DNA of 64,000 nt from Nitrospirota bacterium (GCA_016180645.1 JACPAV010000002.1:174628-238627), one strand, 5' to 3'; shown: positions 15,294 to 55,150, counted from the first letter of the stretch. Made by a program: numbers and translations. The notes: a model not told the origin generated them from the sequence alone.

Positions 15294-15357
15294 GGCGCGA
15301 TCCTTGTTTCCAAGCACCCCTAAAGTCGCGGCCCCAGCGTCCGAACATCCCCCTATA

Positions 15358-15378
15358 TGTTCGTTCATCAAACGAACA
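15358..15378. promoter_or_regulatory. perfect inverted repeat TGTTCGTT-CATCA-AACGAACA between divergent promoters (candidate operator)
   Basis: 8-bp arms are exact reverse complements with a 5-bp spacer; located between the two consensus promoters. Confidence 0.4.
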
Positions 15379-15398
15379 AACTTTAGGCTCGGGCCGGC

Positions 15399-15426
15399 TT
15401 GACACCGCGACATGCATCACTATAAT
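15399..15426 (+). promoter_or_regulatory. consensus sigma70-type promoter for rightward genes: TTGACA-N16-TATAAT
   Basis: TTGACACCGCGACATGCATCACTATAAT about 24 nt upstream of the GTG start at 15450, with GAAGG/AGGGAAG as possible SD. Confidence 0.5.
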
Positions 15427-15449
15427 TTTCCCCCTGAAGGCACAGGGAA

Positions 15450-16945: not shown

Positions 16946-16946
16946 A

Positions 16947-18119: not shown

Positions 18120-19324
18120 CCGATGGTCTGGAATTGGCGCACCAGTCTGCCCGCGTCGTCCGCCCAGGCGTATTGTTTTTCGACGGCCTCACGCCCACGG
18201 GAACCGAATTCCCGGAGGACCTTGGGCTCCGACAACAGGCTGAAGGCCTCGGCGAAGGAAGGTCCATCGAAGGAACACGACAGGCCGCACTCCGTCGATC
18301 GGAGGAGGGTCGAAACATGCCGCATGGCGGAGGAGAGGACGGGACGCGAAAAATACATGTACTCGAAAACCTTGCTGGGGGAGGTCTGATGCGTGAACGG
18401 ATTGACACGGAAGGGGATGAGGCACACTTTGCACGCCTCAATCAGCTCGCCGAACCGTTGCTTCTGAACCCAACCCAACGGGGTCACCGCCTCGTCCAGT
18501 TGCAAATGGGCGACAAGGGATCGAACCTCGGTCTCCTGCTCACCCGCGCCGGCCAGGAGGAGTTTCGGCCGCCTCGCTTTGGGAATGCCCGCGACGGCGC
18601 GAATCAGGCCCGGGATGTCCTTCATGAGATCGTAAGAACCGAGGTAGCCCAGATCGAAACTGAACGGAGCAAACTCGCGGCGGCCATTCGGGCGGGGCAG
18701 GTCTCCGGGTCGAGGGGTATTGCGCACCACCGCAAGCTTGTCCTTTGCGCAACCCCGGTCTGAAAAAACCGCGATGAGCGCTTCGTCAACCATCAGAATG
18801 CGGGTCGCGCCGAAAAAACATGATTGCTCGATTTCCTCCCACAGTCGGAAAACCTCTTCTCGCTGAGACCACCAAGGTGTCGTGGCCCCCCGGATCTCCG
18901 CCAAGGCCCTGACCATCTCCGGCCAGCCCTCATGATGATAGTCCACCACGACCGGGAGGGATCGTTCCACGGCAATGCGGCACACGACGGCGCTGAGGGG
19001 GAGATCGTTCACATGCAGCACATCCGGCTTCACCTCCCGCAAGAACCGCTCGATTTCCGGGACCCAGGGGGAACGGGGCGAAAGATACGTTTCGCTGAGA
19101 AATTCCAGTGTCCAGACCTTGGAGAAGCCCGCCGGAATCGGCAGCTCCGAATAGGCGGTCCCATCGGGCGAGACACCCGCGGACGCCGCCTCCCCTCCTC
19201 CGCACAAGACGAAAATGGAGTGCCCGGATTGTTTCAGTTCATCGAGGAGCTTCCGCAACCGGATATCCGAGGCCCATGGACGCTCAGATATGACACCGAT
19301 CCGCACGGCGGTTTCCTCTCTCAA
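18116..19324 (-). CDS. glycosyltransferase, GT4-like (GT-B fold)
   Basis: SPSKVFEYMYFSRPVLSS resembles the GT4 sugar-donor binding motif; 402 aa; 4-bp overlap with downstream gene. Confidence 0.6.
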   Translation of the reverse strand: MREETAVRIGVISERPWASDIRLRKLLDELKQSGHSIFVLCGGGEAASAGVSPDGTAYSELPIPAGFSKVWTLEFLSETYLSPRSPWVPEIERFLREVKPDVLHVNDLPLSAVVCRIAVERSLPVVVDYHHEGWPEMVRALAEIRGATTPWWSQREEVFRLWEEIEQSCFFGATRILMVDEALIAVFSDRGCAKDKLAVVRNTPRPGDLPRPNGRREFAPFSFDLGYLGSYDLMKDIPGLIRAVAGIPKARRPKLLLAGAGEQETEVRSLVAHLQLDEAVTPLGWVQKQRFGELIEACKVCLIPFRVNPFTHQTSPSKVFEYMYFSRPVLSSAMRHVSTLLRSTECGLSCSFDGPSFAEAFSLLSEPKVLREFGSRGREAVEKQYAWADDAGRLVRQFQTIG

Positions 19325-19371
19325 GTTTCATCCGACCGGAGGATACCCTCGATCGTGCCGGGACCGGCCGG

Positions 19372-20469
19372 CTAGTTTCCACGTGGGAAGCCCGGCGACT
19401 CCGCAAAAATATTGCGGTTGAGCGCCTCGCCCACGTAACCCGTGTACTCTCCCAACGATCCCAATCTCCTTGCGCCGGTATCGTCCCGGATGCCGTATCC
19501 AAGGCCGGTCAAGGCGTCCCATACTCGCTCAAGATTGTTTCGATACCGGCTCACTTCGATGTAGAGCCGCGGCCGGAATCGGGACAGGACCTGCGCGGCC
19601 CCTTCAAGAACATCCGCCTCGCCCCCATCGACATCGATCTTGATGAAATCGAGCCGATCCATCCCCCGTTCGGACACGAACGAGTCCAAAGTAATCTGGG
19701 GTACGATCTCCACGGGCCCCAGCGTTGCAATCTGCAGATAGTCCTGACCGGGAATCATCCCGTGTTCCCTGACCCATCGTTCGATCTCCCATCGGAACAT
19801 CCCCGTGATCAGGACGGTTGAGCCGGGACGGGGGCGGAAACCGTCCAGAAGATTGTAGACCGGCAGTCCCTCCAACGTCCCACCGGACTTCGCGTAGGTG
19901 TCCATGAACCCGAGAATGTTGTGAGACGGATCCGAGCGGAGAAACTGGAAAAGCTCGCGCGCAGATCCACCCGTGGAATAGATGTAGACGCCCGTCTTCA
20001 GCCGATCCGCAAGCAGACGGTTGACTTGCGGATCCCAGTGGGTCTCCGGCGAGCCATCGGTGTAGAAGCCTGCCGTCGATCCGGTCCACCCGGAGTGGAC
20101 CAACGTGGCCGACCCTTTCCTGGCCCCGACCGCCCCGCGCACCAACTGGACGCGAGGTCCGGCATCGTTGGCTTGAACATTCTGTATCAGAAGTCGGGAG
20201 TATGTGGAGGAAGGCTCGAAACTGTAGACCCGCCCCGCCGCGCCCACCCGCAGGGCGGCCGCTACGGTGAACCACCCGATGTTGGCCCCGATATCCACGA
20301 AGACCTCTCCGGATCTCAGTCTGGAGATGCACCCCCCCACGTCATCCGGGAGCGGACATTCCTGGACCAGGGGCGTTCCCGGACGGATGCACATGGATAG
20401 CCGGACCGACTCCAGCGCGACAGAATCCATATCAGACGGCCTCTCTCCGCCGACCACCCCATGGGTCAC
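19372..20469 (-). CDS. FkbM-family methyltransferase with an inserted Rossmann-like domain
   Basis: FVDIGANIGWFTV and DFIKIDVDGGE FkbM-type motifs, split by about 110 aa (VYIYSTGGSARELF...ILGFMD...VLITG) resembling a PglD/NeuD-type N-terminal nucleotide-binding domain. Confidence 0.6.
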   Translation of the reverse strand: MTHGVVGGERPSDMDSVALESVRLSMCIRPGTPLVQECPLPDDVGGCISRLRSGEVFVDIGANIGWFTVAAALRVGAAGRVYSFEPSSTYSRLLIQNVQANDAGPRVQLVRGAVGARKGSATLVHSGWTGSTAGFYTDGSPETHWDPQVNRLLADRLKTGVYIYSTGGSARELFQFLRSDPSHNILGFMDTYAKSGGTLEGLPVYNLLDGFRPRPGSTVLITGMFRWEIERWVREHGMIPGQDYLQIATLGPVEIVPQITLDSFVSERGMDRLDFIKIDVDGGEADVLEGAAQVLSRFRPRLYIEVSRYRNNLERVWDALTGLGYGIRDDTGARRLGSLGEYTGYVGEALNRNIFAESPGFPRGN

Positions 20470-20478
20470 GATTCACAT

Positions 20479-21297
20479 TCACCCCGCGAAGGAATCCCCG
20501 TCACGCTTCAAGAAAGCCGCGGAGTGCGGGCGAATTCCATGTCCACTCCGACCCGCGGGAAGTCCCGCCTCCGGGGCCAAGGCCGATGGGCCGAGAGCCT
20601 TTTCCACGAAGAACAGGAACCTTCGCGGATGCACGAGCGAAGGTACCTGCGAAGCCCGCAGCGAACGCTCGTTTTTCAGCGCAGGGTACTTTCGGATATG
20701 GTCGCGATGGACAAACAGCAAGATGTTCTGCGCATACCACCATTCCACGCGCGGATCCGACCAGATACGCGGCCGGATACAATCCAGTGCCGAGAATCCG
20801 GCGCGATCAAACAGCCTGGCCCACCACATCGGCCACCGTTCGTGCACGTGCTCCGGCCCACCCTGAAAGGGCGAGGCTGCCGAGAAGAGCACCACTGGCG
20901 CGTGCCGTGTCAGGCTCCGCACGAGATTCGCGCCTCCCTTTGGCGCCAAGTGCTCGCCGACCTCCACGGAGACGGCCAGATCGAACCGCTCATGAAGGCG
21001 GATGGGCTCCGCCAAGTTCCCCGGGCGAAAGAACTCGTAAGGCAGGTGGAATGTTTCAGCCGTGACATAGGGACCGTCCACCCCCACCAGCCGCTCCGCT
21101 CCGTATTTCCTGAAGGCATGGAGCCACTTGCCGTCGTTGCAGCCCAGATCGAGGACGGATTTGGGTGCTATCCATTTCATCACCATGGGAACGACAACGT
21201 CCTGAGAGCCCAGCCGGGGAGGGCCGCATAACTTGGGCGCTGTCAGGAACTCCTGCGTGTAGTAGGGCGAAACGGATCCGCTCGCCGATCTCGTCAT
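20479..21297 (-). CDS. class I SAM-dependent methyltransferase
   Basis: VLDLGCNDGKWL motif I and downstream acidic motif; 272 aa. Confidence 0.6.
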   Translation of the reverse strand: MTRSASGSVSPYYTQEFLTAPKLCGPPRLGSQDVVVPMVMKWIAPKSVLDLGCNDGKWLHAFRKYGAERLVGVDGPYVTAETFHLPYEFFRPGNLAEPIRLHERFDLAVSVEVGEHLAPKGGANLVRSLTRHAPVVLFSAASPFQGGPEHVHERWPMWWARLFDRAGFSALDCIRPRIWSDPRVEWWYAQNILLFVHRDHIRKYPALKNERSLRASQVPSLVHPRRFLFFVEKALGPSALAPEAGLPAGRSGHGIRPHSAAFLKRDGDSFAG

Positions 21298-21331
21298 GGC
21301 AGCCCCCCTCCCGGAATATGCTTCTGCGCGC

Positions 21332-22762
21332 TCATAATGCAGCCTCCTCCGCTAAATGATCCTCCGTGGGGAGAGACCTCTCCCAATCCGTCTCCGCGGG
21401 CATCGGCTCGGCGGAACCCAATCCCAGGGCGAAGTACTCCAGCCCCGCTCGGCCTTCGAGTTGCCGCCGGAGAACTCTCCAAGCGTCCACGACAACGCTC
21501 GGAAACCCCGGGGTCCCCCATGACTTCAGGTCCATGCTCATGAACTCGTCCATCGGGTGACACACCACCACCCCTCGCGCTCCCCGCACCGCCTGCTCCA
21601 GTGAGTCGGCGTACGTCACCGCAGTGCCCAGGAGACCCCGGGCGGATTCGATGGCCAGAGCGTCATAGACCACGACGCGCCGACCCGAAGAGGCCAGGCG
21701 CCGGGCAATCGCCAGCCCCTGCGACTCCTCCACCACCATCGTGTTCGGTTTGTAGGCCAAGCCCAGAACCGCCACCGTGTCCTCCGGAGCAAGTTTCGAC
21801 TGCACCAGAGCCACGATTCTCTCCACCTGGCGCCGATTGAATCGATCCGTGGCCAGCGGCAGGCTGTCCGGACACCCGAGCTTCTTCTGAAGAAAACTTA
21901 TCGCCAGGTTGTCGCGAGGAAAACACGGGCCTCCGTACCCCATCCCCCCTTTCAGGAACCGCGGACCGATGCGCGAATCGCGGCCCAGGGCCTGTGTGAC
22001 GGTATCCACGTCCCCTCCCGGCAATTTCTCGCAGATTTCAGTCAACATGTTGGCAAAGCTGATCTTCATCGTGACGTACGTGTTCACCGCCAATTTCGCC
22101 AGCTCGGCATTCTCGAAATTCATCCGCACGACCGGAGGATCATTCTGGAGCCGGCGCCGGTACAAATCCTCGAGCCACCGGCCAGCGCGCTCGTCCCCCT
22201 GACCGATCAGAACGAAATCGGGGTTCAGAAAATCGTGGATCACGCTCCCCAACGCGATGAATTCCGGGCTGTAGCACAGGCCGAAATCGGAACCGCAGAT
22301 CCGGCCTGAACTGCGCTCCAGGAGCCGACGTATCGGCCCCCGGGTGGCGCCCGGCAGAACCGTGCTGCTGATGACAAACAGGTGGTAGCCCCGCTTCCGG
22401 GAGAGGGCCTCCCCCGCTTTCTCCAGCGCCGGCTCCAGGAATCTCAAAGAGAACCCCCCATCCGCGTCGGAGGGCGTCGGGAGAACAAAGAACGTGACCT
22501 GGGTCCCGCGGACCGCTTCGGCCAGATCGGCGGTGGCGGTCAGGCGGCTCCTGGAATCCGCGATTGCCTCTCCAAGTCGGGGCTCGTACAGAGGGGCTTT
22601 CCCTTCCCGAATCGATTGCACAACATCGGGACGGATGTCCACGCCCACCACGGTCGATCCTCGCCAGGCCATGCAGGCCGCCATACACGCCCCCAATTTC
22701 CCAAGACCGACCACGGATACGGGATCGAGGCATTCCGCGGGGGGGACCCCTTCGTCACGCAT
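21332..22762 (-). CDS. nucleotide-sugar dehydrogenase (UDP-glucose/GDP-mannose dehydrogenase family)
   Basis: N-terminal VVGLGKLG Rossmann motif, GGPCFPRD catalytic-cysteine region, C-terminal UDP-binding domain. Start set to ATG (MRDEG) at 22762. Confidence 0.75.
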   Translation of the reverse strand: MRDEGVPPAECLDPVSVVGLGKLGACMAACMAWRGSTVVGVDIRPDVVQSIREGKAPLYEPRLGEAIADSRSRLTATADLAEAVRGTQVTFFVLPTPSDADGGFSLRFLEPALEKAGEALSRKRGYHLFVISSTVLPGATRGPIRRLLERSSGRICGSDFGLCYSPEFIALGSVIHDFLNPDFVLIGQGDERAGRWLEDLYRRRLQNDPPVVRMNFENAELAKLAVNTYVTMKISFANMLTEICEKLPGGDVDTVTQALGRDSRIGPRFLKGGMGYGGPCFPRDNLAISFLQKKLGCPDSLPLATDRFNRRQVERIVALVQSKLAPEDTVAVLGLAYKPNTMVVEESQGLAIARRLASSGRRVVVYDALAIESARGLLGTAVTYADSLEQAVRGARGVVVCHPMDEFMSMDLKSWGTPGFPSVVVDAWRVLRRQLEGRAGLEYFALGLGSAEPMPAETDWERSLPTEDHLAEEAAL

Positions 22763-23888
22763 CGTTGACCCCCTCCGCGAACGGTTCGAGAGGCACGGCG
22801 CCCGCGAAAGGAACTTTTCCACCTGCCGTTTCAACCTGCGCGGAATGGGCCACCCGTCGCCTCGCGCCGACGGATTTCACCTCCCGCCACCGGGCCACAA
22901 GATCCCGCGCGCGTTCGAGATACGTGTGGTCCGCTCTCACTCGCCTGCAACCCGAACGCGCTATCTTCTCACGCTCCGAATCCCGCTCCAGATAGTGACG
23001 GACGAGAGAGGGGATCTCCGCAGGATCCCGGTAGGTCACCACGTCCCTTCCGGCGTCGAAGAAGCGCGCCAATTCCTCTTTGTGCGGGGTGACCACCATG
23101 CACCCGTTCCCCATCGCCTGGAAAACCCGATCCGAAATCACGCCATCCTCATCGTTGGCGTCCACGCAGATCCGGGTTTCGCCGTACATCCCATAGACGG
23201 CCCGAGTGTCTTCCAGACGCCCCCGGTAGGATTGGCGCAGGCCTGAGCGGTCGATCGCGGGCTGCCCCGCGGACCCAAACAGATCCAGCCCCAGCGATTG
23301 AAGATTCAACAGCGCCCGCTGCCTCCATCCCCCCTCCTCGCGCACGTTTCCCACGAAGGCCACCTTTCTGACCCGGCCCTCTCCGGGCGGAACGGAAATG
23401 AGGCTGTCGAACGCGTTTGGAAGATAGAAGGCCCGGCCCGCGAGCGCGCGAACCCGCGTCGCATCCTGCTCCCGGTGCATCGCGAAACAGTTCCGTTCGG
23501 ACCCCACCAACACCTGGAATATTCGACTCCGAATCGAGCCGTCCCCTCGAAGATACCCCGACACGAGATCGTCCACGTAGGTCACGCTCCGGAACCCCCA
23601 GGCGTCAAAGAGCGAGCAGAGCCTTCCGCGATTCTCGGCGACGAGGCATGCGTTCAGATTGCACCCCAGAACAAAGTCGACCTCGGCTCGTTCAAGATAC
23701 CGCCTGAGCGCGCCCAGAAGGGACTCACGATGCGCGGCCAGAAGCGAGAGAAGCTTCGAACGATCGAACAGGTGGACCCGGTGTCCTCCCACGCCCAGGG
23801 CGCGCGCCAACCCCCCGATGATTCCCGCCTCCGCGTACCAACTCGACGGATCCGTGATGACCGCGACGGAAAGTTTCCTATGAGGCAT
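22755..23888 (-). CDS. CgeB-family glycosyltransferase-like protein
   Basis: C-terminal DRVFQAMGNGCMVVT segment typical of CgeB/DUF3880-type GT1-like proteins. Start set to ATG (MPHRKLSVAVI) at 23888; the track's 5-prime extension is less plausible. Confidence 0.5.
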   Translation of the reverse strand: MPHRKLSVAVITDPSSWYAEAGIIGGLARALGVGGHRVHLFDRSKLLSLLAAHRESLLGALRRYLERAEVDFVLGCNLNACLVAENRGRLCSLFDAWGFRSVTYVDDLVSGYLRGDGSIRSRIFQVLVGSERNCFAMHREQDATRVRALAGRAFYLPNAFDSLISVPPGEGRVRKVAFVGNVREEGGWRQRALLNLQSLGLDLFGSAGQPAIDRSGLRQSYRGRLEDTRAVYGMYGETRICVDANDEDGVISDRVFQAMGNGCMVVTPHKEELARFFDAGRDVVTYRDPAEIPSLVRHYLERDSEREKIARSGCRRVRADHTYLERARDLVARWREVKSVGARRRVAHSAQVETAGGKVPFAGAVPLEPFAEGVNDA

Positions 23889-24110
23889 AGATCCGAAAAA
23901 AGCTTGGAAAACAGAAATCCCAGGTCTCGGATCCAAGCCGGACCGTGAAGGGAGGAATGGGCCGCGTTTCACCCGCCTTCCCCCCCATGATGCCCCGCTC
24001 CTTCAAGGACCGGGCCAGTTCCGCGGAGGCATCCGCGACGGGCGATCCTCCTTTCCGCCGTAAAGGTTCCCCCCGAGCCGCACTTGGTCTGGAACGGAAG
24101 ATCCGGCGTT

Positions 24111-25148
24111 TCATAGCCGGCGATACTCGACCATGAGGGCATCCACGATCTTGCGGGGGTGCCAGTGCTGAACCATGAACTCCCGCGAGTTCCTTCCGGT
24201 TTCCATGCGATGGTCCCCATCCGAGATCAGCCGCCCGAGCACGGTTTCAAGCTCGGCCGAATCCCCCGCGGCCAGCCAAGGCAGTGCATCGGTTCCCGCA
24301 AACCGCGCCGCCTCCGAGCGGGTCCTCTCCGCCAGACGGGCAATGGTGGGGGTGCCTTGGCTCAAAGCTTCGAGCGACGACACGCCGAAGTATCCCTGCA
24401 AATGATCGAAAAAGATGTGGCAGTTTCGCTTCCGCTCCAGGCACTCGGAGTGGGGGACGTTTTCAATGAGGTCGAGGTCCAGGAAACCGTTGTATCGGGC
24501 CTTGAGACCCGCGTAGACGCGCACCAGGAGTTCGGTGTCCTTGATCTCCTTCTTGGTCGGCGACTGACCGATTCTTACTCGTGACTCGTGAGTCGCGACT
24601 CGTGACTCGTGGGGAAGGTAGAGTGGATCGTCGATGGGAACGAGATTGGGTATCCACGTGGCCTCCGGAAGAAAATCCAAGAGGTCCGGCGTGCTGACCA
24701 GAAATGTTCTTCGAGAACTCTGCGCGCGGAATCGAGCCGGATCGGATCGAAGGGGCTCGCCATGTTGATGGTAGATCGCCCTTTTCCCCTTCATGAAATC
24801 CTTGGCCCTGAAAGGACCCAGAGGCGTTTCCTCATCGGCAAAGGCGTGAAAGTGAAAGAGATCGGCATCGCGGAGAACCTGTTCGATCTCCTCCACGTTC
24901 GAGGTTCGATGACCTCCACGAAGGGGGAAATGCCGCGGGAGGGCAGGAGCCCGGAGCGGCCGTTCGACATCCGACGATTCCGGAACATGGATGTCCTTCC
25001 TGTAGTTGAAGTTGTATTTGACGGCCGTGGTCACCAGACGGCAGGAATGTTCGGTGTGACGGTTGATCGCATCGGTGAAGGCGATCCCCATCCCGGCGGG
25101 ATCATTGGTGCAAATCATGAGGATGCGCATCCCAATTCCCCTCGGCAC
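24111..25148 (-). CDS. glycosyltransferase-like protein carrying an in-frame heptanucleotide repeat
   Basis: C-terminal SSLEALSQGTPTIA region resembles a GT-B donor-binding motif; contains HESRVATHESRV encoded by the tandem heptamer array. Confidence 0.5.
   Translation of the reverse strand: MPRGIGMRILMICTNDPAGMGIAFTDAINRHTEHSCRLVTTAVKYNFNYRKDIHVPESSDVERPLRAPALPRHFPLRGGHRTSNVEEIEQVLRDADLFHFHAFADEETPLGPFRAKDFMKGKRAIYHQHGEPLRSDPARFRAQSSRRTFLVSTPDLLDFLPEATWIPNLVPIDDPLYLPHESRVATHESRVRIGQSPTKKEIKDTELLVRVYAGLKARYNGFLDLDLIENVPHSECLERKRNCHIFFDHLQGYFGVSSLEALSQGTPTIARLAERTRSEAARFAGTDALPWLAAGDSAELETVLGRLISDGDHRMETGRNSREFMVQHWHPRKIVDALMVEYRRL
24577..24611. repeat. tandem heptanucleotide array (ACTCGTG x2, AGTCGCG, ACTCGTG x2) inside a coding region
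   Basis: Five adjacent 7-nt units read directly; central GAGTCGCGACTC is palindromic; encodes HESRVATHESRV in frame. Confidence 0.7.
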
Positions 25149-25152
25149 GTCC

Positions 25153-27099
25153 TCAGAGAAAGCGGCTCAGGCGGCTGAGGGCCTCCAGCGCCCGTTTCCC
25201 TTTCCACTGGTGGCCGCGCCAGATCTCGGGGACGAACCCCTCGTCGTAGTCTTTCAATTCGCCGAATACGGCTTCGAAGGGAATCTCACCCTCGCCGATT
25301 TGGACTCCCTCCCCATGCACGCCATGGGCGTCCGCCACGTGCAAGTGGCGAATGTAGGGCCTCACCGCGCGGACGAAAGAAACAATGTCCTTGCCGACGT
25401 GCTTGCAGTAGAGCTGGGCATGCGACGTATCCAAACAGATGTTGAACTTCGTTTCCGCGCAAAACGCGGCGATCTCTTCGGGATTCAGAAAAAGGTAGCC
25501 CGTCCATTGGCCCCCGAAATACCACGGAAAGGGCGGCAGGTTCTCGAGGAGGACTTCCACTCCGGTCGTGTCAAGCCGGCGGAGGGAGTCGATGAATCGG
25601 CCCGACATTCCATTCGCGCCGGGATATCCATTCAGACTCATCCCCCCCGGATGGAGGATCACTTTGGGCTTCGACCCGTGATTGAAGGAAGGACCCATCT
25701 TCCGAGCCATGTTGATCACGCGCTGAGCCACGGAAATCGAGCACTGGCGGGTGGCCATGTCTTTCGATGCCAGATCGAGAATGACGTCTCCGTCGTACTC
25801 GGGGGCATGAACGACAAGGTTCTGGGGAAATCGACCCGGGGGCGGCTCGATCTCCAAGTCGCGGTCCGTCATGTGGAATTCGAAGAGGTCGGGCTTGTAT
25901 TCGACAAACTTGTCCACGTCCGTCACCCGGACGATCAAGCCCCACTTCTTGGAGCTGACGGGGCGGGCCATCGGCGCCTCCGGCTCCCTCAGATCGTCCT
26001 CCACAAAAAGCTCACCCGCCATCATGTCCCGATGTGCGGTTCTCCCGATGAGCTGGTCGGCCAGATGGGGCGAGAGGCCTTTCCCCGGCCCCATGACGGT
26101 GATTTTGTCCTGCGTGATGACCTCGCCGATCTTGATATCGGCGGCGGCCACGAGGCTCTTGGCGAACAGCTCCCGATTGAGCTGTTCTCCCTGAGTCATT
26201 CGCTTGACGCCGGTGCCCAAGCACTCCTCCACAACGCGTATCCCATGAACCAAGCGGGCAAATTCATCTTTCTCGAGACTGACTTTGTGGTCGGGCCCCC
26301 ACGCCGTCCGATCATGCGTGAAATGTTTTTCGACAATCCGCGCGCCGCGCGCGACGGCGGCGAGTGAAACTTCGATCCCGCGGTCGTGCCCCGAGTAGCC
26401 TACGGTGACCCCGAACTTCTGGAGTTCATCCATGACTTTCAGATTCACTTCCCGGTAGAGGGCCGGATACAGGCTTACGCAATGGAGAATGGCGAATTCG
26501 GCTCTTTTCGATTTGAGGAAGTTCACCGTGCCTTCGATTTCCGGCATGAGCGACATCCCGGTGGAGAGAAGAAGCGGTTTCCCATGGGCGGACATTCTCG
26601 CCAGCAGCGGCCAATTGGTGAGATCCGCCGACGAGACCTTGAAGGCCTGCACCCCCAGTTGGGCGACAAAGTCCACGCTGGGCGGATCGAAGGCCGTGCA
26701 CAGAAGTTCGATTTCCAGCTCCCGACAGCGTTCGGCCAGCCGCGAGTAGGCTTCTTCATCCAGCTCCACCCGGCGGAGGATCGGGATCATGTACTGAAAG
26801 TGTCTCTCGTGCTGGATCACCTGCTCCAGCACGTCGGAGGTGTAAAGGGATTTCAGATCGCGCTTTTGGAACTTGACGGCATCGGCGCCTGCCGCCTTGG
26901 CGTCCTCAATCAGGCGAAGAGCAAGGTCCTCGCTCCCATTATGATTGATTCCTATTTCGGCGATGACGAAGGTTCGCTGCCCTTCGCCGATGAGCCGCCG
27001 GCCTATCCTAAGAGGATCCGGCACGCTCCGCTCCAGCCAAGGAAGGCGCGGTCCCTCACGCCATGGGGCCACGACGGCCCCGCGCCGACAGGCGCACAT
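25153..27099 (-). CDS. NeuB-family nonulosonate synthase fused to a C-terminal xylose-isomerase-like TIM-barrel domain
   Basis: N-terminal FVIAEIGINHNGS and SAF-like IKIGEVITQDKITVMGPGKG of NeuB-type synthases; C-terminal about 300 aa with LLENLP, DTSHA, HLHVAD, GEGEIPF resembling sugar-phosphate isomerase/epimerase TIM barrels; 648 aa. Confidence 0.65.
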   Translation of the reverse strand: MCACRRGAVVAPWREGPRLPWLERSVPDPLRIGRRLIGEGQRTFVIAEIGINHNGSEDLALRLIEDAKAAGADAVKFQKRDLKSLYTSDVLEQVIQHERHFQYMIPILRRVELDEEAYSRLAERCRELEIELLCTAFDPPSVDFVAQLGVQAFKVSSADLTNWPLLARMSAHGKPLLLSTGMSLMPEIEGTVNFLKSKRAEFAILHCVSLYPALYREVNLKVMDELQKFGVTVGYSGHDRGIEVSLAAVARGARIVEKHFTHDRTAWGPDHKVSLEKDEFARLVHGIRVVEECLGTGVKRMTQGEQLNRELFAKSLVAAADIKIGEVITQDKITVMGPGKGLSPHLADQLIGRTAHRDMMAGELFVEDDLREPEAPMARPVSSKKWGLIVRVTDVDKFVEYKPDLFEFHMTDRDLEIEPPPGRFPQNLVVHAPEYDGDVILDLASKDMATRQCSISVAQRVINMARKMGPSFNHGSKPKVILHPGGMSLNGYPGANGMSGRFIDSLRRLDTTGVEVLLENLPPFPWYFGGQWTGYLFLNPEEIAAFCAETKFNICLDTSHAQLYCKHVGKDIVSFVRAVRPYIRHLHVADAHGVHGEGVQIGEGEIPFEAVFGELKDYDEGFVPEIWRGHQWKGKRALEALSRLSRFL

Positions 27100-27144
27100 T
27101 TGTCTCCCAGCGTGAGGGGCCGACTTTGCATCGGCGTATTCGCG

Positions 27145-27759
27145 CTACAGCTGAATGACACAAATCCCTCCCTGTTCCAGCCCCTTGACCTGTTCCAGGA
27201 TCTCGTTCTTGCGCGCGAAGGAGGTGATGATCACGCCGTCCGGGCTCAGCTCCCTGATGGAATCCGGACGCGAGACCTTCCATTGCCCGAAGGATTGCCC
27301 CCATTTGCGTTCATCGTTGTCCACCACGCCAACAATCTCCACCGGAACGTTGCGAAGGGCCGCGCTGACCACTTCTCCCGTTTCCGAGGCCCCAAACAGA
27401 ACCACTCGGCGGATATGCCCGTTCAGATGTTTCTGTACCGCCCGCTGGATGGCGCCCTTGATGTACGAATAAGCCCGCACCAGCTCGACGGACGACTCCA
27501 TCAGAAAATTCATCCTGGCTTCGTTCCCCAGTGGAGTGACTTGGTACGTCATCCTCTTTCTTGAGAGTTCCTCCTTGGCAATCCACCCCTTCCGGATGCC
27601 TTCGTCGATGTAGTAATTGACTTGGGCGCTGGAGACGCCGACCAGTCCGGACAACTTGTGTTGGCTCAAGTTCGGATTCTCGCTGAGAAAATTCAGGAGA
27701 TAGAGCAACTTAAACTTGTGTGTGGGTTTCCAGCATGAGAAGCTGGAGAATTCTTTCAT
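27145..27759 (-). CDS. winged-helix transcriptional regulator with C-terminal Rossmann/CoA-binding-like domain (Rex-like architecture)
   Basis: N-terminal wHTH-like segment (LSQHKLSGLVGVSSAQVNYYI) and C-terminal RVVLFGASETGEVV...VGVVDNDERKWG. Start set to ATG (MKEFSSF) at 27759; first gene after the AT-rich gap. Confidence 0.45.
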   Translation of the reverse strand: MKEFSSFSCWKPTHKFKLLYLLNFLSENPNLSQHKLSGLVGVSSAQVNYYIDEGIRKGWIAKEELSRKRMTYQVTPLGNEARMNFLMESSVELVRAYSYIKGAIQRAVQKHLNGHIRRVVLFGASETGEVVSAALRNVPVEIVGVVDNDERKWGQSFGQWKVSRPDSIRELSPDGVIITSFARKNEILEQVKGLEQGGICVIQL

Positions 27760-27842
27760 GTCTATTCGCAATCCTTCCTTAGTTGCGGCCCTTTCGGCAC
27801 CGGGGATTATCCCCCGGATGCTATCCTTAGCAATTCCTTTGA

Positions 27843-27871
27843 GTCTATTACAACATATGGTGGTTTGTCAA
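27843..27871 (-). promoter_or_regulatory. possible promoter for the regulator gene: TTGACA with weak -10 (TAATAG)
   Basis: Minus-strand TTGACAAACCACCATATGTTGTAATAG; overlaps the 10-mer AACGAACAAA shared with the 15371 operator region. Confidence 0.25.
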
Positions 27872-28120
27872 GCGAACGAACAAAGGAACAAGCCCCCTGC
27901 CAGGTTTCGGCAGGGGGCCCAAGGATCAACACCAACCATCCACAGATTCTCTTTCAAGTTTCGTTTGTTAACTTACTGAACAATATCGGACAGAGCTGCA
28001 ATAACTTTAGGGAGAAGTGAGGACGCGATTGTTCATGAAACAATACCAATATTGTATTGAAATTAAATATATATCTAATCGATTGGCGGAGCCTCAAGGT
28101 TCCGCAATTGAACGATTTCT

Positions 28121-29983
28121 CTACGCGCGAGAGGAGCGCATGCTCTGCTGCAGTTCAAACAGGGCATGCTCAACCAGCCTTCCCATCAACGGGATGTCTC
28201 CCACAAGATTCACAAGGAATGCCTGCCCCGATTCCAGGTGCCGCGCAAGCTGCTCCGAGCCCGACGTTGATTCGCGCCAGGGCCGAAGAACCCGCCGGAC
28301 CAAGGGTTTCGCCACCGCTGAAATCAGCCTGGAGGGAGCCGCCCGATCGGCCACATCGCTGACGAAACTGCCGATCCGCAGCCTTCGTTCCTCCAAGATC
28401 GAGGCGGCGTCTCCATCCGCGGGCCGGCGCCCTATCTCCCCCCACCTCTCGAAGAGATCTCCCATCCGGGCTGAAAATGAGTGGAGTGCTGTTCTTTCTT
28501 CCACAAGGGAGTCGTACAGCCGGCACAGGCTCTCGCGATCCACGGGGGCATCCGCGAGAAAATTCCCGGAAAGATCTCCTCCATTCCAAGCGCTGTCCCG
28601 CGGCAATGCGGCGACCTCGGACCGCAATTCGTCCAGCGTCATCCGCACCGATCCTCCGGTCTCACCACCCGCCACATCACTCAACACGACTTTGAATCCC
28701 CCCCCCTGCCGGTAGCCCGCCCCCATCTCCAAAAGGAAGCGCCTATCCGCCAATCGGTCGTACGCGCTGGGATCGGAAGCATCGGCCGGGTCGAGGTCGA
28801 CCCAGAACGTGCGGTCAAACCATGCCCCGCAAAGAACCGCGGCATCCACGGGGGCGGAGAGACCGAGAGGAAGGTGGAGAGCAGTCGAATCACCCGACAC
28901 CACCCTCTCCATCCATGCGCCAAGATCATCCTGCGCGCGCGCATACACCACCGGTCGCTCAGGGGAATCTTTGAAGGCCAGGGGATCGGCGTCCAAGGGG
29001 AGCACGGCCAGCGCCGGGTCACGAGGGGAACGGGCATCCGCCCCGAAGCGCAAGCGCGGTTGGATTCCCGATGCCGTGCCGGACGTCGCCGTCCCCTCCG
29101 CTCCGCTCCACGGACGGCGAAATGAATTTTCATAGGGTCCTGTCGCCGCGACCACGGTTCGCGCTTCGATCGCTCCCATCAGATCCGCCGGAAGACGACC
29201 GGCGCAGCCGCTGTTCAACACCACCGCGTTCAGCCAGACCTGCCGATCGGGCCGGGGCTGGACCCCGCGGCCTTTCCACAGCCACGGCAGATTCTCGAGC
29301 GAGCGGAGCAGGATCCGACGGGATTCGGTTGCCGGGATTTCCACCTGTCGCCTGAACAGGGACAACCGGCAAGCCGCTCTGCCTTGGATTCTCGCCACCC
29401 TGTCGGTGAACGATTTTGCATAGCCGGGAAGAATCAACCACGAGACCCGGAGGCCGATCCGAAGTGAAGCGTCCATCGCCTTGTTGAAGTGGGGTTCATC
29501 GTGAACGAGTACCAACCGATCTGGCACAAAGAGGCTTCCGTAGTCAATCCGGCCCATGAGGTCGGCCAGCAGGGCTCGGTCCGGCTCATACAGGATGACC
29601 TTCGCGGAGGTCCGGTCCAGAAGTTCGCGCACGTGGTAGCCCAAGCCAAGACCCACCACGAGGACCAACTCCGCACCGGTATCCACCGCCGTCTGGACAA
29701 GTCCCTTGGCCTCGAGCACAGGATGGAAGGGGCTGTGGAGGAATTCGCTCTTGTACTTGAGCGTCGGCGGTCCGGCGCGGGAGGGCAGGATGTCAACCGC
29801 CCCGACTTCACCATCGCCAAGCTCCGGGATCGAACCTCGGACAACTCGGCGGAACGCTTCGGAGTTGCTCGCCCAGCGGAGCCGGCGACGCGGGGATCCG
29901 GTCGCCGTTCCGTTGACCGTCTCCGGCGCGGAGCCGCCGGGGAGGCGTTCAGCGAGCGGCAGGTTGCCGGCCGAGCGGCTCAT
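28121..29983 (-). CDS. Maf-like (motility-associated-factor / DUF115 type) putative nonulosonate transferase, paralog 2
   Basis: ELVLVVGLGLGYHVREL aligns with VDVVVMMGVGLGYDLKE of the adjacent paralog. Start uncertain: track start 30052 overlaps the upstream gene; ATG at about 29983 chosen. Confidence 0.4.
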   Translation of the reverse strand: MSRSAGNLPLAERLPGGSAPETVNGTATGSPRRRLRWASNSEAFRRVVRGSIPELGDGEVGAVDILPSRAGPPTLKYKSEFLHSPFHPVLEAKGLVQTAVDTGAELVLVVGLGLGYHVRELLDRTSAKVILYEPDRALLADLMGRIDYGSLFVPDRLVLVHDEPHFNKAMDASLRIGLRVSWLILPGYAKSFTDRVARIQGRAACRLSLFRRQVEIPATESRRILLRSLENLPWLWKGRGVQPRPDRQVWLNAVVLNSGCAGRLPADLMGAIEARTVVAATGPYENSFRRPWSGAEGTATSGTASGIQPRLRFGADARSPRDPALAVLPLDADPLAFKDSPERPVVYARAQDDLGAWMERVVSGDSTALHLPLGLSAPVDAAVLCGAWFDRTFWVDLDPADASDPSAYDRLADRRFLLEMGAGYRQGGGFKVVLSDVAGGETGGSVRMTLDELRSEVAALPRDSAWNGGDLSGNFLADAPVDRESLCRLYDSLVEERTALHSFSARMGDLFERWGEIGRRPADGDAASILEERRLRIGSFVSDVADRAAPSRLISAVAKPLVRRVLRPWRESTSGSEQLARHLESGQAFLVNLVGDIPLMGRLVEHALFELQQSMRSSRA

Positions 29984-34190: not shown

Positions 34191-34204
34191 TCGACCTCCC
34201 CGTT

Positions 34205-37209: not shown

Positions 37210-37250
37210 TTCCGCGGTCCGGTGGTGACACCAGCCACAGGAAGGGCTGA

Positions 37251-37313
37251 GTGCCGAGTGCCGAGTGCCGAGTTTCTCGGACTCAGGACTCGGGACTCGG
37301 GACTCGGGACTTT
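37251..37313. repeat. twin heptanucleotide tandem arrays: (GTGCCGA)x3 and (GGACTCG)x4 flanking GTTTCTC
   Basis: Read directly; immediately downstream of the PIG-L stop. The two arrays are imperfect inverted copies of each other. Confidence 0.7.
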
Positions 37314-38752: not shown

Positions 38753-40122
38753 GGGAGTGGCAAGTGGTGAGTGGCGAACGGCGAGTCGAGGGGGCCACGG
38801 CTCGGTTCTTTTGGCCCTTCGCTCGTCGCTCCTCGCTCGCTCCTCGTTGCTCGTTGCTCGTTGCTCGTTGCTGTCATGGCGTCCACCAACGCGCACACCC
38901 GGTCCGTGGCGCGTCCGTCGTTCAAGGCATTGAGGGTCAGGAGATCCGCCTCTCTCAACATCTCCTCCTCCATCGTCCTCGGTGCGCGAAGGGCCTCCAT
39001 GGTTTTCCGAAAGACCTCTTCCTCAGTGCGCGCTTTGAGGATCGAGGCCGCATCATTGAAGATCGTCTCCGGCACATGGAGCGAGAGCGACATAACCCGG
39101 GCGCCGTAGATCAGCGCCTCGACGGCCATCGTCGATTGAAAGCAAATCACCACGTCCGACGCCCTGAGCAGCGGCGCCAGCGCGGGCGCCAAGGAAAGGT
39201 GTCGCGGGTAGGTCGAGTGGACCCGGAGACCCTCGGCTTGAGCCAGCGCCTCATACTCTTTGTCCGCATAGGGATCGGAGGGATGGGGTTTCAAAACCAA
39301 CTGGAAGGCCCGGGCCTTTTGGGCCCGAGCGAGCGCGCGGAACGTATCGGCCATGACGTCTCCCGGCCGATAGGAATGCTCCCGGAGGTACAGACCGCTC
39401 CGCCACGTGGTGGCCAGACACACCACGGGGAGACCGCTCTGCAGCCCGATCTCGCGCAACGCCCTCGACTTCTCCCATTCGCCGCGGAGGCGGTAGTGCA
39501 GGTCCATGACGACCGATCCCGTGACGGCCAATCGATCTTCCGCCACGCCCGCCCGCCGGTACCAATTCCGGCAGCGCTCCCCGAACACAGACATGATGTC
39601 CGCATACACACGGTCATGCAGATTGGCCAGTCCGGGCAGCCCATGCGCGAGGCAGAGGCTGGGAACGCCATAGGCCCTCGCCAATTGAATCGCCACCCGC
39701 TGGAGGGGCCGGACGTCGTTGTCCACCATCAGCAGGCCCAATCCGCCCTCGACCGCCATTCTCTTGACGGCCACCGCAATGCCCAGCATCTGGCGGCTCA
39801 GGTTGGAGAACCGTGGCGCGAGACTCTCGTAGATTTTCACATCGGCGTATCCCCGCTCGGACAAGGCCGCCTCGAAGCCCATCGCCAAGCGGGCGCAGTC
39901 CTCCGGACTCTTCTCCAGGACGTAGCGGTCGATCGCCGCCAAGTCGCCCGGATCGAACAACGTCTCCAGGGAGGCCACGCTCCCCCCCCCCGATTTCCGG
40001 ATGAAATCGTAGGTCGTCGGGTTCACCACGAGGTCGTGCCGGGATGCCAATCTCCGGCAGAGGTGCTCATACCTCTGGTTCAGCAGCGCGAGAATTCGGA
40101 CCGGCACGTCAGGACCCTCCAT
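38749..40122 (-). CDS. TagF-like (CDP-glycerol glycerophosphotransferase-type, HP motif) putative transferase, paralog 1
   Basis: VVCLATTWRSG (PTWR-like) and QLVLKPHPSDP motifs; 457 aa. The C-terminal about 45 aa is encoded by heptamer arrays and may not be native; G10 tract near 5-prime end. Confidence 0.5.
   Translation of the reverse strand: MEGPDVPVRILALLNQRYEHLCRRLASRHDLVVNPTTYDFIRKSGGGSVASLETLFDPGDLAAIDRYVLEKSPEDCARLAMGFEAALSERGYADVKIYESLAPRFSNLSRQMLGIAVAVKRMAVEGGLGLLMVDNDVRPLQRVAIQLARAYGVPSLCLAHGLPGLANLHDRVYADIMSVFGERCRNWYRRAGVAEDRLAVTGSVVMDLHYRLRGEWEKSRALREIGLQSGLPVVCLATTWRSGLYLREHSYRPGDVMADTFRALARAQKARAFQLVLKPHPSDPYADKEYEALAQAEGLRVHSTYPRHLSLAPALAPLLRASDVVICFQSTMAVEALIYGARVMSLSLHVPETIFNDAASILKARTEEEVFRKTMEALRAPRTMEEEMLREADLLTLNALNDGRATDRVCALVDAMTATSNEQRATRSERGATSEGPKEPSRGPLDSPFATHHLPLP
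38755..38873. repeat. two heptanucleotide arrays (GAGTGGC-like x3-4 and GCTCGTT x4 exact plus degenerate copies) at the TagF-like/WbqC junction
   Basis: GCTCGTTGCTCGTTGCTCGTTGCTCGTT read directly at about 38847-38873; degenerate units extend upstream to about 38821; second array at about 38755-38790 directly upstream of the WbqC ATG. Confidence 0.7.
39982..39991. repeat. homopolymeric C10 tract (G10 on coding strand) in the 5-prime region of TagF-like paralog 1
   Basis: Read directly; encodes the GGG of IRKSGGGSVAS. Confidence 0.6.
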
Positions 40123-54049: not shown

Positions 54050-55150
54050 CTACCTTGCGTAGGAAGTGGAATCAAGTGAATCGCGACGGCGGGCCGACGA
54101 TGAGCGGAATTCCCTCAGGTGTCGTTGCACTTCCTCCAACACTTTTTGAAGATTCGGTTTGCCATCCACGAATTTCCTCTGGAAGTCTTCCGATACACGC
54201 CTGAACTCCTCCTCGGCCGGGCCGTCGAGCTGCAATACTTGCACACCCCTCTTGCTGATGCCCTTGAGCGCCGTCTCTTCGTCCCTCCGCATGATTTCGA
54301 ACAGCTTGGGAAGTGCCACTTCCACTTCGGCCAGGATCAATTTGCGCACGCCCTCCGGGGCTTGGTCCCATTGCTTCCTCCCCGTCACCAACACGGCCTG
54401 CGCAAACACGCCGCCGAGCCTCGTCACGTACCCGACATCGCGATACCAGCCCAGAACCACCGCACCCAGGGCGTTGGCGAAAACGACTTCCAGACGATCC
54501 GCGCGTAGGGCCTCCTGCACCTGGGCCAGAGGGAGTGGAACGGTCTGAATGCCAAGATACTCCGCGAAGGCCGGGAGAATCCGTTCGCCCGGCCATACCC
54601 AGATCTTCCGCTTCTTGAACTCTTCGAACGTGGGAACGGGAACACGGGTAAACAACAAACCCGATCCGATGTCCGCCCACACGATCAGACGGAAACCTAC
54701 ACGGCTGAACGCCTCAGCAATGGTGTCGTTCATCTTGTTTCGGACGTACTCGATCTCCCTCTCGTTGCGGAAAAGATAGGGAAGGAGGAGGACCGTGAAC
54801 TCCGGAGAGATCTCCCCGATGCCGGAGAGGGTGAACACGCCCGCGGACAAATCGCCCTTCCGGACCATTTCCACCATGGCAGGTTCGTCGCCAAGCACGC
54901 CGCTCGCATGAAGTTTGAAACGGACCTGCCCCTTGCTCAGCGCCTCCACGTGATCCGTCGCTTCCTTGAGGATCTTCATGTAAGGGGAGTTGCCGGGGGC
55001 GATGGTGCCGAGTGAAAACTCCCAGGACTTTTGGGCTTGGCCGTAGGCGGAGAGGGGTAAAAGGAGCGTGGCGGCCGCGAACAGCAGACACAGGACTGAG
55101 GGCCGAGGGCTGAGGACTGAGCGGTGGAGATCCGCCAGTCTGCAACTCAT
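54050..55150 (-). CDS. TRAP-transporter solute-binding protein (DctP/TatP-like) with signal peptide
   Basis: N-terminal hydrophobic signal (VLCLLFAAATLLLPLSAYG) and DctP-family fold features; 366 aa; heptamer-like repeat lies in the signal-peptide n-region. Confidence 0.65.
   Translation of the reverse strand: MSCRLADLHRSVLSPRPSVLCLLFAAATLLLPLSAYGQAQKSWEFSLGTIAPGNSPYMKILKEATDHVEALSKGQVRFKLHASGVLGDEPAMVEMVRKGDLSAGVFTLSGIGEISPEFTVLLLPYLFRNEREIEYVRNKMNDTIAEAFSRVGFRLIVWADIGSGLLFTRVPVPTFEEFKKRKIWVWPGERILPAFAEYLGIQTVPLPLAQVQEALRADRLEVVFANALGAVVLGWYRDVGYVTRLGGVFAQAVLVTGRKQWDQAPEGVRKLILAEVEVALPKLFEIMRRDEETALKGISKRGVQVLQLDGPAEEEFRRVSEDFQRKFVDGKPNLQKVLEEVQRHLREFRSSSARRRDSLDSTSYAR
55091..55125. repeat. 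degenerate heptanucleotide array (AGGACTG, AGGGCCG, AGGGCTG, AGGACTG, AGCGGTG)
   Basis: Read directly at the 5-prime end of the TRAP binding-protein gene. Confidence 0.5.

What the first reader, a model, noticed from the sequence alone, without database searches (positions are those of the whole stretch)
24577..24611. Five-unit heptanucleotide tandem repeat inside a glycosyltransferase-like gene: candidate slipped-strand frameshift switch
ACTCGTG-ACTCGTG-AGTCGCG-ACTCGTG-ACTCGTG is read in frame as HESRVATHESRV. Because the unit is 7 nt, gain or loss of one unit would frameshift the gene. Short-sequence-repeat contingency switches are well known in surface-glycan genes of host-associated bacteria; here the repeat is a GC-rich heptamer, which is unusual.
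Basis: partly seen in the sequence, partly recalled or inferred. Interest (0 to 1): 0.55.

Follow-up and report, generated by a model that had tools for sequence, protein, structure and literature searches.

The report
Short heptamer microsatellite in glycosyltransferase linker
The 5-unit, 7-base repeat is real and sits in frame in a floppy linker of a sugar-transferase gene from a groundwater Nitrospirota bacterium, but it looks like one of many tolerated heptamer microsatellites in this genome rather than an active on/off switch.

Summary
Window 24577-24611 holds ACTCGTG x5 with a variant middle unit AGTCGCG. It reads in frame on the minus strand as HESRVATHESRV (codons 180-191) in a 339/345-aa protein with a GT-B/GT4-like fold, inside a nonulosonic-acid/glycan gene cluster. 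Gain or loss of 1-2 units would truncate the protein; gain or loss of 3 keeps the frame.

The switch interpretation has little support:
- The longest perfect run is about 2 units, whereas known heptamer switches carry 13-53.
- Two assemblies from other sequencing runs of the same groundwater population carry the identical array, and neither contig breaks at it.
- No truncated alleles appear in the protein database.
- The array is one of 5-6 period-7 arrays in the window (4 strong ones against 0.03 expected by shuffling). That is about six times the density in 1.8 Mb of background loci. Most of the others lie between genes or at gene ends.
- It encodes a low-confidence, length-variable interdomain linker.

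One point is notable. The closest ortholog (74% aa identity) carries a different heptamer array (CGGTCGA x4.7) at the same linker position. Silent sites between the two genes are near saturation, so this site keeps generating or homogenising 7-nt arrays.

Best reading: a tolerated long simple-sequence repeat of the well-known heptanucleotide class. Active phase variation is unproven and unlikely. Interest is low to moderate.

The parts
24577..24611 (-). Focal heptanucleotide array. On the coding strand it reads CACGAGT CACGAGT CGCGACT CACGAGT CACGAGT and encodes H180-V191 (HESRVATHESRV), which is the whole interdomain linker.
   Evidence: Identical in L150 and L151.
24111..25130 (-). Host gene, a GT-B/GT4-like glycosyltransferase. 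It is 339 aa from the MRILMIC start used by database entry P0001; the longest ORF runs to 25148 (345 aa). The gene is intact and conserved on both sides of the array.
24900..24974 (-). Loop-1 insertion (about residues 59-83, SDVERPLRAPALPRHFPLRGGHRTS), absent from most homologs, with pLDDT below 50. It holds degenerate heptamer remnants (ATCGTCG GATGTCG; ATCGAAC CTCGAAC). The ortholog L001 has an ATCGACC x4.1 array at this loop. Contigs from three runs break here.
37249..37311 (.). Intergenic pair of partly complementary heptamer arrays (GAGTGCC x3.6, then ttct, then GGACTCG x4.7) between the PIG-L gene and the next gene. It forms a long imperfect hairpin.
   Evidence: Fold z = -3.5. Identical in L147 and L148.
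38755..38872 (.). Two heptamer arrays (GAGTGGC-type at 38755-38786; TCGCTCG/GTTGCTC x7.7 at 38819-38872) between, or within the C-terminal tail of, an epimerase-like ORF and the WbqC start at 38752. Two independent contigs end at 38869 and 38872.
55092..55121 (-). Heptamer array (AGGACTG x4.3) inside the N-terminal, pre-signal-peptide region of a DctP TRAP solute-binding protein.
   Evidence: Identical in L152; L153 starts inside it.

Best explanation
The array is a tolerated, in-frame heptanucleotide microsatellite of the 'long SSR' class. It most likely arose by replication slippage in a lineage that is prone to making 7-nt arrays. It persists because it lies in a structurally permissive spot: the length-variable, non-conserved linker between the two Rossmann-like domains of a GT-B glycosyltransferase. 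There it simply encodes spacer residues.

Only arrays that keep the frame and carry no stop codon in any sense phase survive in a coding region, and this one meets both conditions. The two substitutions in the middle unit leave only about 2 perfect units on each side, so present-day slippage should be rare. The gene behaves as a stable ON allele.

Over evolutionary time the site is dynamic: the nearest ortholog has a different heptamer array at the same position.

Shown: the array exists and is in frame, the frameshift geometry, the linker location, the genome-wide enrichment of period-7 arrays, the invariance in independent assemblies, and the different-unit array in the ortholog. Inferred: slippage as the origin, the low current mutability, and neutrality.
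For: (1) Period 7 is specifically enriched. There are 4 strong arrays against 0.03 expected in shuffles. Density is 6.25 per 100 kb against 1.06 per 100 kb in 1.79 Mb of homolog loci.
(2) The other arrays are intergenic or at gene termini. Relatives L001 and L002 also carry heptamer arrays with varied units.
(3) The array-encoded residues replace a linker that varies from 8 to 17 aa and is not conserved in 22 homologs. Mean pLDDT for residues 181-190 dips to 67, in a model averaging 88.9.
(4) Among 120 homolog proteins and 143 homolog loci, only this gene and its nearest relative carry a within-gene heptamer array.
(5) The array is identical in L150 (SRR12113385) and L151 (SRR12113431), within 12.2 kb and 8.7 kb of 100% identity, and neither contig breaks at it. 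Arrays at 37249-37311 and 55092-55121 are also invariant.
(6) Published work reports heptanucleotides as the most abundant long-SSR class, mostly intergenic, sometimes as inverted pairs. Position is conserved but sequence and length vary between related species. Polymerase slippage is the proposed cause (PMC4692102 and PMC4679880).
(7) The sense-strand unit CACGAGT has no stop in any phase, whereas the antisense unit contains TGA (read directly from the sequence).
Against: - The comparison contigs have zero SNPs against the window, so they come from one population, probably one groundwater site. Consensus assemblies cannot exclude minority length variants.
- Two orthologs with heptamer arrays ending at the same codon is more than a uniform neutral model predicts. 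It could reflect selection to keep a mutable tract.
- Three of 12 independent contig ends fall on other heptamer arrays (38869, 38872, 55111). That hints that some arrays in this genome are heterogeneous in the population.
- The gene is in a surface-glycan cluster, the classic setting for contingency loci.
Confidence: 0.68

Rival explanations
1. Genuine contingency (phase-variation) locus. Slipped-strand mispairing adds or removes one 7-nt unit, switching the glycosyltransferase OFF or ON and so varying a surface glycan, for example against phage or grazers in groundwater.
For: - Gain or loss of 1-2 units truncates the protein before the nucleotide-sugar-binding domain.
- The gene lies in a NeuB/glycan cluster.
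- In-ORF heptamer switches exist: NeuO AAGACTC and H. influenzae hmw1a (AATTTTG)14.
- The nearest ortholog keeps a heptamer array at the same site although silent sites are near saturation (third-codon identity 0.50), and each array is 86-92% internally periodic.
- Contigs break at other arrays.
Against: - The longest perfect run is 2.1 units. This is below the threshold of 3 or more uninterrupted units, and proven heptamer switches have 13-53 units.
- The allele is identical in two assemblies from other runs, with no contig break at the array.
- Both orthologs are in frame, and no truncated fragments appear among 665 homologs. By contrast 65.6% of neuO alleles are OFF.
- The array is mid-gene and is one of many heptamer arrays that are mostly non-coding.
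- The organism is probably free-living.
Confidence: 0.13
2. Linker-length tuner. In-frame changes of 3 units (7 aa) alter the interdomain linker length from 4 to 18 aa and modulate the open/closed dynamics or activity of the GT-B enzyme, as NeuO activity rises with repeat number.
For: - Gain or loss of 3 units preserves the frame.
- Linker length varies naturally from 8 to 17 aa in the family.
- NeuO repeat length is reported to affect catalytic activity.
Against: - No length variants were observed.
- Three-unit slippage on a tract with only 2 perfect units is improbable.
- No evidence shows that linker length matters in this family.
Confidence: 0.05
3. Nucleic-acid structural or regulatory element. 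The central 12-nt palindrome GAGTCGCGACTC forms a hairpin or cruciform or a protein-binding site within the coding region.
For: - The variant middle unit creates a perfect 12-nt palindrome.
- Other heptamer arrays in the window do form a strong hairpin (z = -3.5).
Against: - Folding the focal array on either strand is no better than shuffles (z = -0.10 and +0.12).
- The ortholog's array has a different sequence.
Confidence: 0.03
4. Chance similarity or assembly artefact.
For: None beyond the short length (35 nt).
Against: - TRF score is 56.
- Shuffles give 0.03 arrays per window.
- The same sequence appears in independent assemblies.
- The ORF is intact and conserved on both sides.
Confidence: 0.01

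Closest known systems
Long simple-sequence repeats with heptanucleotide units (Mrazek et al. 2007 class). Examples: Xanthomonas GGGAATC, Nostoc GGGGA(T/C)T, Calothrix/Anabaena heptamers, Beggiatoaceae/cyanobacterial TAACTGA.
   Same: - Head-to-tail 7-nt units of a few copies.
- Period 7 is specifically over-represented in the genome.
- Mostly intergenic or close to start and stop codons.
- Some occur as inverted pairs that form hairpins.
- Position is conserved but unit sequence and length differ between relatives.
   Different: - No single dominant unit here. Units are diverse (ACTCGTG, GAGTGCC, GGACTCG, GTTGCTC, AGGACTG; in relatives ACGGTCG, ATCGACC, GATCGAC).
- They are not G-quadruplex forming.
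- The focal copy is inside a conserved enzyme gene, which is the rarer situation.
- The host is a Nitrospirota MAG. I found no description of such repeats in that phylum.
E. coli K1 neuO, a phase-variable sialic-acid O-acetyltransferase with 5'-AAGACTC-3' heptanucleotide repeats in the ORF.
   Same: - A 7-nt unit within a coding sequence of a nonulosonic-acid/surface-glycan-related gene.
- The protein is full length only in one of three copy-number classes.
- The repeats are translated.
   Different: - neuO has 3-53 (typically about 20) perfect repeats at the 5' end.
- 65.6% of its genome copies are OFF, and switching has been measured.
- Here there are 5 units with an interruption, mid-gene, invariant in all assemblies, with no OFF alleles.
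Haemophilus influenzae hmw1a/hmw2a heptanucleotide SSRs (promoter, 13-38 copies; one in-ORF (AATTTTG)14).
   Same: Heptanucleotide SSR associated with a surface-structure gene. The in-ORF case causes a frameshift.
   Different: Those tracts are much longer and perfect, in a host-adapted pathogen, with documented inter-strain variation.
Neisseria pglE glycosyltransferase heptanucleotide phase variation (recalled from memory, not checked here).
   Same: A heptamer repeat inside a glycosyltransferase ORF.
   Different: As I recall it, a long perfect tract with demonstrated ON/OFF variation. No such evidence exists here.

Membership tests
SSR-mediated phase-variable (contingency) locus | Tandem repeat with a unit length not divisible by 3, inside the ORF, so that unit gain or loss shifts the frame | tested here: met
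   The array starts at codon 180 in phase 0. Changes of -2, -1, +1 or +2 units give stops at 188-230 aa; changes of 3 units stay in frame.
SSR-mediated phase-variable (contingency) locus | Long uninterrupted tract that supports high slippage rates | tested here: not met
   The longest perfect periodic run is about 15 nt (2.1 units) on each side of the variant unit. The permissive screening threshold is 3 or more uninterrupted units, and proven heptamer switches have 13-53.
SSR-mediated phase-variable (contingency) locus | Copy-number polymorphism, including OFF alleles, among strains or populations | tested here: not met
   The array is identical in L150 (SRR12113385) and L151 (SRR12113431), and neither contig breaks at it. 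No truncated near-identical proteins among 665 homologs. No allele found in JGI metagenomes. Power is limited: one clonal population, consensus level only.
SSR-mediated phase-variable (contingency) locus | Experimentally measured reversible switching | not testable with these tools
   Needs read-level data or reporter assays.
SSR-mediated phase-variable (contingency) locus | Gene affects a surface or exposed structure | tested here: met
   GT-B/GT4-like fold. Neighbours are a NeuB/AP_endonuc_2 fusion, Glyco_trans_1_2, UDP-glucose dehydrogenase, WbqC and PIG-L. The actual glycan and its location are inferred.
Heptanucleotide long-SSR class (genome-wide 7-nt arrays) | Head-to-tail 7-nt units, several copies | tested here: met
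   TRF gives period 7, 5.0 copies, score 56.
Heptanucleotide long-SSR class (genome-wide 7-nt arrays) | Period 7 over-represented relative to other periods and to chance in the same genome | tested here: met
   4 arrays against 0.03 in shuffles, and none at periods 5, 6 or 8-12. About six times the background density. Only 64 kb of the genome was available.
Heptanucleotide long-SSR class (genome-wide 7-nt arrays) | Predominantly intergenic or gene-terminal location | tested here: met
   Arrays at 37249-37311, 38755-38872 and 55092-55121 are intergenic, in a C-terminal tail or in an N-terminal region. The focal array is the exception, being internal but in a non-conserved linker.
Sequence-specific heptamer families (cyanobacterial STRR, TAACTGA, GGGAATC) | One dominant unit sequence shared by the arrays of a genome | tested here: not met
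   Units differ between all arrays in the window and in L001 and L002. The window and L001 units are not significantly similar (p about 0.12).
GT-B fold glycosyltransferase (GT4-like) | Two Rossmann-like domains joined by a linker, with structural similarity to solved GT4 enzymes | tested here: met
   AF2 pLDDT 88.9, pTM 0.87. Foldseek matches MshA, PimA and BshA at E 1e-11 to 1e-10 with TM about 0.6.
GT-B fold glycosyltransferase (GT4-like) | Pfam/NCBIfam glycosyltransferase domain at curated threshold | tested here: not met
   No Pfam or NCBIfam hit for this protein. A few homologs carry PF00534. The PDB profile search hits PglA at E 1.4e-3. The family is divergent and uncurated.

The most novel reading that the evidence does not exclude
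A free-living groundwater Nitrospirota keeps frameshift-prone heptamer tracts at fixed permissive loops of glycan-biosynthesis genes. The same glycosyltransferase linker carries a different heptamer array in each of two diverged lineages, and other arrays in the cluster coincide with assembly breaks. These tracts would act as low-rate contingency or evolvability loci that vary surface glycans under phage or grazer pressure, extending SSR phase variation beyond host-adapted bacteria.
Probability: 0.1. Interest if true: 0.55.

Novelty: new member of a known kind. Interest (0 to 1): 0.27.

Why it matters
If the ordinary reading holds, it matters mainly as a caution: a non-triplet repeat inside a glycan gene is not enough to call a contingency locus. 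It also shows cleanly how lineage-specific heptamer slippage colonises permissive protein loops. Two orthologs carry different 7-nt arrays ending at the same codon, and each is 86-92% periodic although silent sites between the genes are near saturation. If the switch reading were true, it would be a rare example of SSR phase variation of a surface glycan in a free-living environmental bacterium. That is directly testable with the public reads of this groundwater series.

Tried and rejected
- Exact-protein look-ups of the 345-aa and 339-aa products found no contigs.
- A flank-plus-gap DNA pattern for alleles with other copy numbers found nothing in JGI metagenomes.
- Scans for relatives in GTDB genomes and JGI metagenomes returned only relatives at 51% identity or less. 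The source genome and close strains are absent there, so those loci served as background.
- L002, L003 and L004, three samples of the next ortholog's population, are 100% identical and show no array polymorphism.
- A hairpin or regulatory structure at the focal array is rejected (z about 0).
- Homology between the window unit and the L001 unit is not significant (p about 0.12).
- Heptamer arrays appeared to cluster within 400 nt of homologs of this gene in Desulfobacterota. This is not significant once their intergenic preference is allowed for (3 of 8 against an expected fraction of 0.15, p = 0.11).
- A look-up of the epimerase-like ORF, meant to read through the 38819-38872 array from the other side, found nothing.
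- A literature search for heptamer repeats in Nitrospira/Nitrospirota returned nothing specific.

Full report
**Observation.** Window 24577-24611 (+) reads ACTCGTG ACTCGTG AGTCGCG ACTCGTG ACTCGTG. TRF reports period 7, 5.0 copies, 85% matches, score 56. The array lies on the antisense side of minus-strand ORF 24111-25148. On the coding strand it starts at nt 538 (codon 180, phase 0) and is translated as HESRVATHESRV. Arrays of this strength are not expected by chance: 4 period-7 arrays occur in the window against 0.03 per dinucleotide-preserving shuffle, and periods 5, 6 and 8-12 show none. The middle unit differs at two positions. That leaves only about 2.1 perfect units on either side and creates a 12-nt palindrome, GAGTCGCGACTC.

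**The host gene.** The ORF has no Pfam or NCBIfam hit. It has 665 homologs. The 100% match (P0001, 339 aa) is annotated 'glycosyltransferase [Nitrospirota bacterium]' from a single 369,728-bp contig. A profile of 23 homologs weakly matches the nucleotide-sugar-binding half of GT4 enzymes (PglA E 1.4e-3, PimB'). An AlphaFold2 model (pLDDT 88.9, pTM 0.87) matches GT-B/GT4 structures (MshA, PimA, BshA) at E about 1e-11. Neighbours are a NeuB/xylose-isomerase-like fusion, a Glyco_trans_1_2 protein, UDP-glucose dehydrogenase, and further along PIG-L, WbqC, methyltransferases and more glycosyltransferases. So 'glycosyltransferase-like gene in a surface-glycan (nonulosonic acid) cluster' is supported.

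**Where the array sits in the protein.** In the 23-sequence alignment the array-encoded residues fill exactly the segment between the conserved blocks VPIDDPLYLP and VRIGQSPTKK. In homologs this segment is 8-17 residues long and not conserved. In the model it is coil, with a pLDDT dip to a mean of 67 for residues 181-190, just before the first strand of the C-terminal domain. A second lineage-specific insertion (about residues 59-83, pLDDT below 50) occupies another loop. Sequence on both sides of the array is conserved and in frame, so the gene is an intact 'ON' allele.

**Frameshift geometry.** Simulated gain or loss of 1 or 2 units gives stops at 188-230 aa, before the conserved FDHxQGY/GVSSLE region. 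Gain or loss of 3 units stays in frame.

**Genome context: one of many heptamer arrays.** The window contains these further period-7 arrays:
- 37249-37273 plus 37279-37311, an intergenic, partly complementary pair that folds into a long hairpin (z = -3.5).
- 38755-38786 plus 38819-38872, between or within the C-terminal tail of an epimerase-like ORF and the WbqC start.
- 55092-55121, in the pre-signal-peptide N-terminus of a DctP protein.

The focal array itself has no significant fold (z about 0 on both strands). Array density is 6.25 per 100 kb in the window against 1.06 per 100 kb in 1.79 Mb of loci around homologs from other phyla. Period 7 is also the leading non-triplet class in that background. 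Units differ from array to array, so this is not a sequence-specific family such as TAACTGA or GGGAATC. Published surveys, as summarised in PMC4679880 and PMC4692102, report heptanucleotides as the most abundant long-SSR class in most genomes. They describe them as mostly intergenic, sometimes as inverted pairs, and conserved in position but variable in sequence and length between related species. Polymerase slippage is the proposed cause.

**Orthologs.** The nearest ortholog is P0002 on contig L001 (74% aa identity). It has a different heptamer array at the same site: GAA CGG TCG ACG GTT GAC GGT CGA CGG TCG ACG GTG, encoding ERSTVDGRRSTV (ACGGTCG x4.7). It ends at the same Val codon before (K/R)IGQSPT. 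L001 has a second array (ATCGACC x4.1) in loop 1. The next ortholog (P0003; L002-L004, syntenic) has a plain 8-aa linker (LRDRPNGQ) but carries intergenic heptamer arrays. None of the other 118 listed homologs shows 7-residue periodicity, and none of the other 141 homolog loci has an in-gene heptamer array. Between the window and L001 genes, third-codon identity is only 0.50, which is near saturation. Yet each array is 86-92% internally periodic. So the arrays are either younger than the split (recurrent birth at a permissive site) or continually homogenised by slippage. The two units are not significantly similar (p about 0.12), so I cannot distinguish these. Either way the site is dynamic on evolutionary time.

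**Strain and population test.** Exact look-ups of neighbouring proteins recovered contigs of the same population from other sequencing runs:
- L147/L149 (SRR12113425) covers window 24933-38872.
- L148 (SRR12113385) covers 29441-38869.
- L150 (SRR12113385) covers 12755-24952.
- L151 (SRR12113431) covers 16252-24952.
- L152 (SRR12113385) covers 42379-57644.
- L153 (SRR12113431) covers 52249-55111.

All are 100.000% identical to the window with no gaps. The focal array is present, identical and read through in both contigs that cover it. The arrays at 37249-37311 and 55092-55121 are also identical.

Three caveats apply:
- The contigs carry no SNPs, so they represent one clonal population.
- The runs neighbour SRR12113421, a Modesto (California) groundwater sample of 2018, so they probably share a site.
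- One of the runs may be the MAG's own source.

Minority length variants cannot be excluded.

**Contig ends.** Three of 12 contig ends fall on heptamer arrays: 38869 and 38872 at the end of the longest perfect array, GTTGCTC x4.3, and 55111. None falls on the focal array. Three further ends fall inside loop 1 of the focal gene (24933, and 24952 twice). This may mean that some arrays, but not this one, are heterogeneous in the population. I could not test this further.

**Comparison with known switches.** NeuO (AAGACTC) has 3-53 repeats, with 20 the commonest. Of 64 genome copies, 65.6% are OFF, and switching is measurable. H. influenzae hmw1a/hmw2a carry 13-38 copies, and an in-ORF (AATTTTG)14 tract is frameshifted in one strain. 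Even a permissive SSR screen requires 3 or more uninterrupted units. The focal array meets the geometric criterion and the surface-gene criterion. It fails the tract-length criterion and the polymorphism criterion.

**Conclusion.** The finding is real. It is best explained as a tolerated heptanucleotide microsatellite encoding the interdomain linker of a GT-B glycosyltransferase, in a Nitrospirota lineage rich in 7-nt arrays (confidence about 0.68). Rival readings:
- Active phase variation is possible but unsupported (about 0.13).
- A linker-length tuning role (about 0.05).
- A nucleic-acid structural role (about 0.03).
- Artefact or chance (about 0.01).

Novelty is a new member of a known kind. 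The most interesting residue is the recurrence of different heptamer arrays at the same two loops in two orthologs, which public reads from the groundwater series could probe directly.

Noticed in passing
L001 995-1027 and 659-687 (Logan SRR22388141 contig; gene 507-1493): The closest ortholog of the focal gene has two heptamer arrays inside the gene. ACGGTCG x4.7 sits at the same linker site and ends at the same codon as the window array. ATCGACC x4.1 sits in loop 1. The units differ from the window's unit, and both arrays are in frame.
   Followed up: yes
window 24933-24952 (inside the loop-1 insertion of the focal gene, codons about 66-72): Contigs from three different runs stop here. L149 ends at 24933, and L150 and L151 start at 24952, a 20-nt overlap. 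The stretch is 70-75% GC and contains the recurring 14-mer listed below. Possible causes are population heterogeneity or a coverage drop.
   Followed up: partly
window 24935-24948, 29777-29790, 41930-41943 (+ strand): The 14-mer GCGGGAGGGCAGGA occurs three times exactly, all on the + strand. There are 9 matches with 2 or fewer mismatches against 1.6 expected, and 0 of 100 shuffles reach 9. The flanks share no similarity. It may be a strand-skewed over-represented oligomer of unknown role.
   Followed up: partly
window 38869-38872 and 55111: Three independent contig ends coincide with heptamer arrays: the right end of GTTGCTC x4.3, and inside AGGACTG x4.3. No 31-mer in these arrays is repeated within the window, so copy-number heterogeneity in the population is a plausible cause.
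   Followed up: partly
window 37240-37320: An intergenic pair of partly complementary heptamer arrays forms a long imperfect hairpin. As single-stranded DNA on the minus strand it folds at -17.5 kcal/mol (z = -3.5), with one C.C mismatch per heptad. It lies directly after the PIG-L stop codon, and gene callers extend a 113-aa ORF through it.
   Followed up: partly
window 38749-38896: The 457-aa epimerase-like ORF reads through both heptamer arrays as a low-complexity C-terminal tail. Its TGA overlaps the WbqC ATG (ATGA). Whether the arrays are translated or are 5'-UTR/intergenic sequence is unresolved.
   Followed up: no
window 55092-55121 (gene 54050-55150, minus strand): A heptamer array lies inside the N-terminal n-region of the signal peptide of a DctP TRAP solute-binding protein (MSCRLADLHRSVLSPRPSVLCLLF...). 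This is another coding-region array in a permissive segment.
   Followed up: partly
L002 3224-3598: The syntenic cluster of the next ortholog has a 23S-rRNA-intervening-sequence protein gene (PF05635) inserted between the NeuB fusion and the glycosyltransferase. It is flanked by heptamer arrays at 3184-3216 and 3610-3633. The window has no such gene.
   Followed up: no
L026 9924-9955, L038 9667-9747, L005 2048-2075, L047 9585-9609, L002 3610-3633: Heptamer arrays lie 11-392 nt upstream of homologs of this glycosyltransferase in several Desulfobacterota genomes and in L002. The enrichment is not significant once intergenic preference is considered (p = 0.11).
   Followed up: yes
window 25153-27099: This gene encodes a NeuB (nonulosonic acid synthase) fused to a xylose-isomerase-like TIM-barrel domain (AP_endonuc_2). 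The fusion is conserved in the ortholog cluster L002.
   Followed up: no
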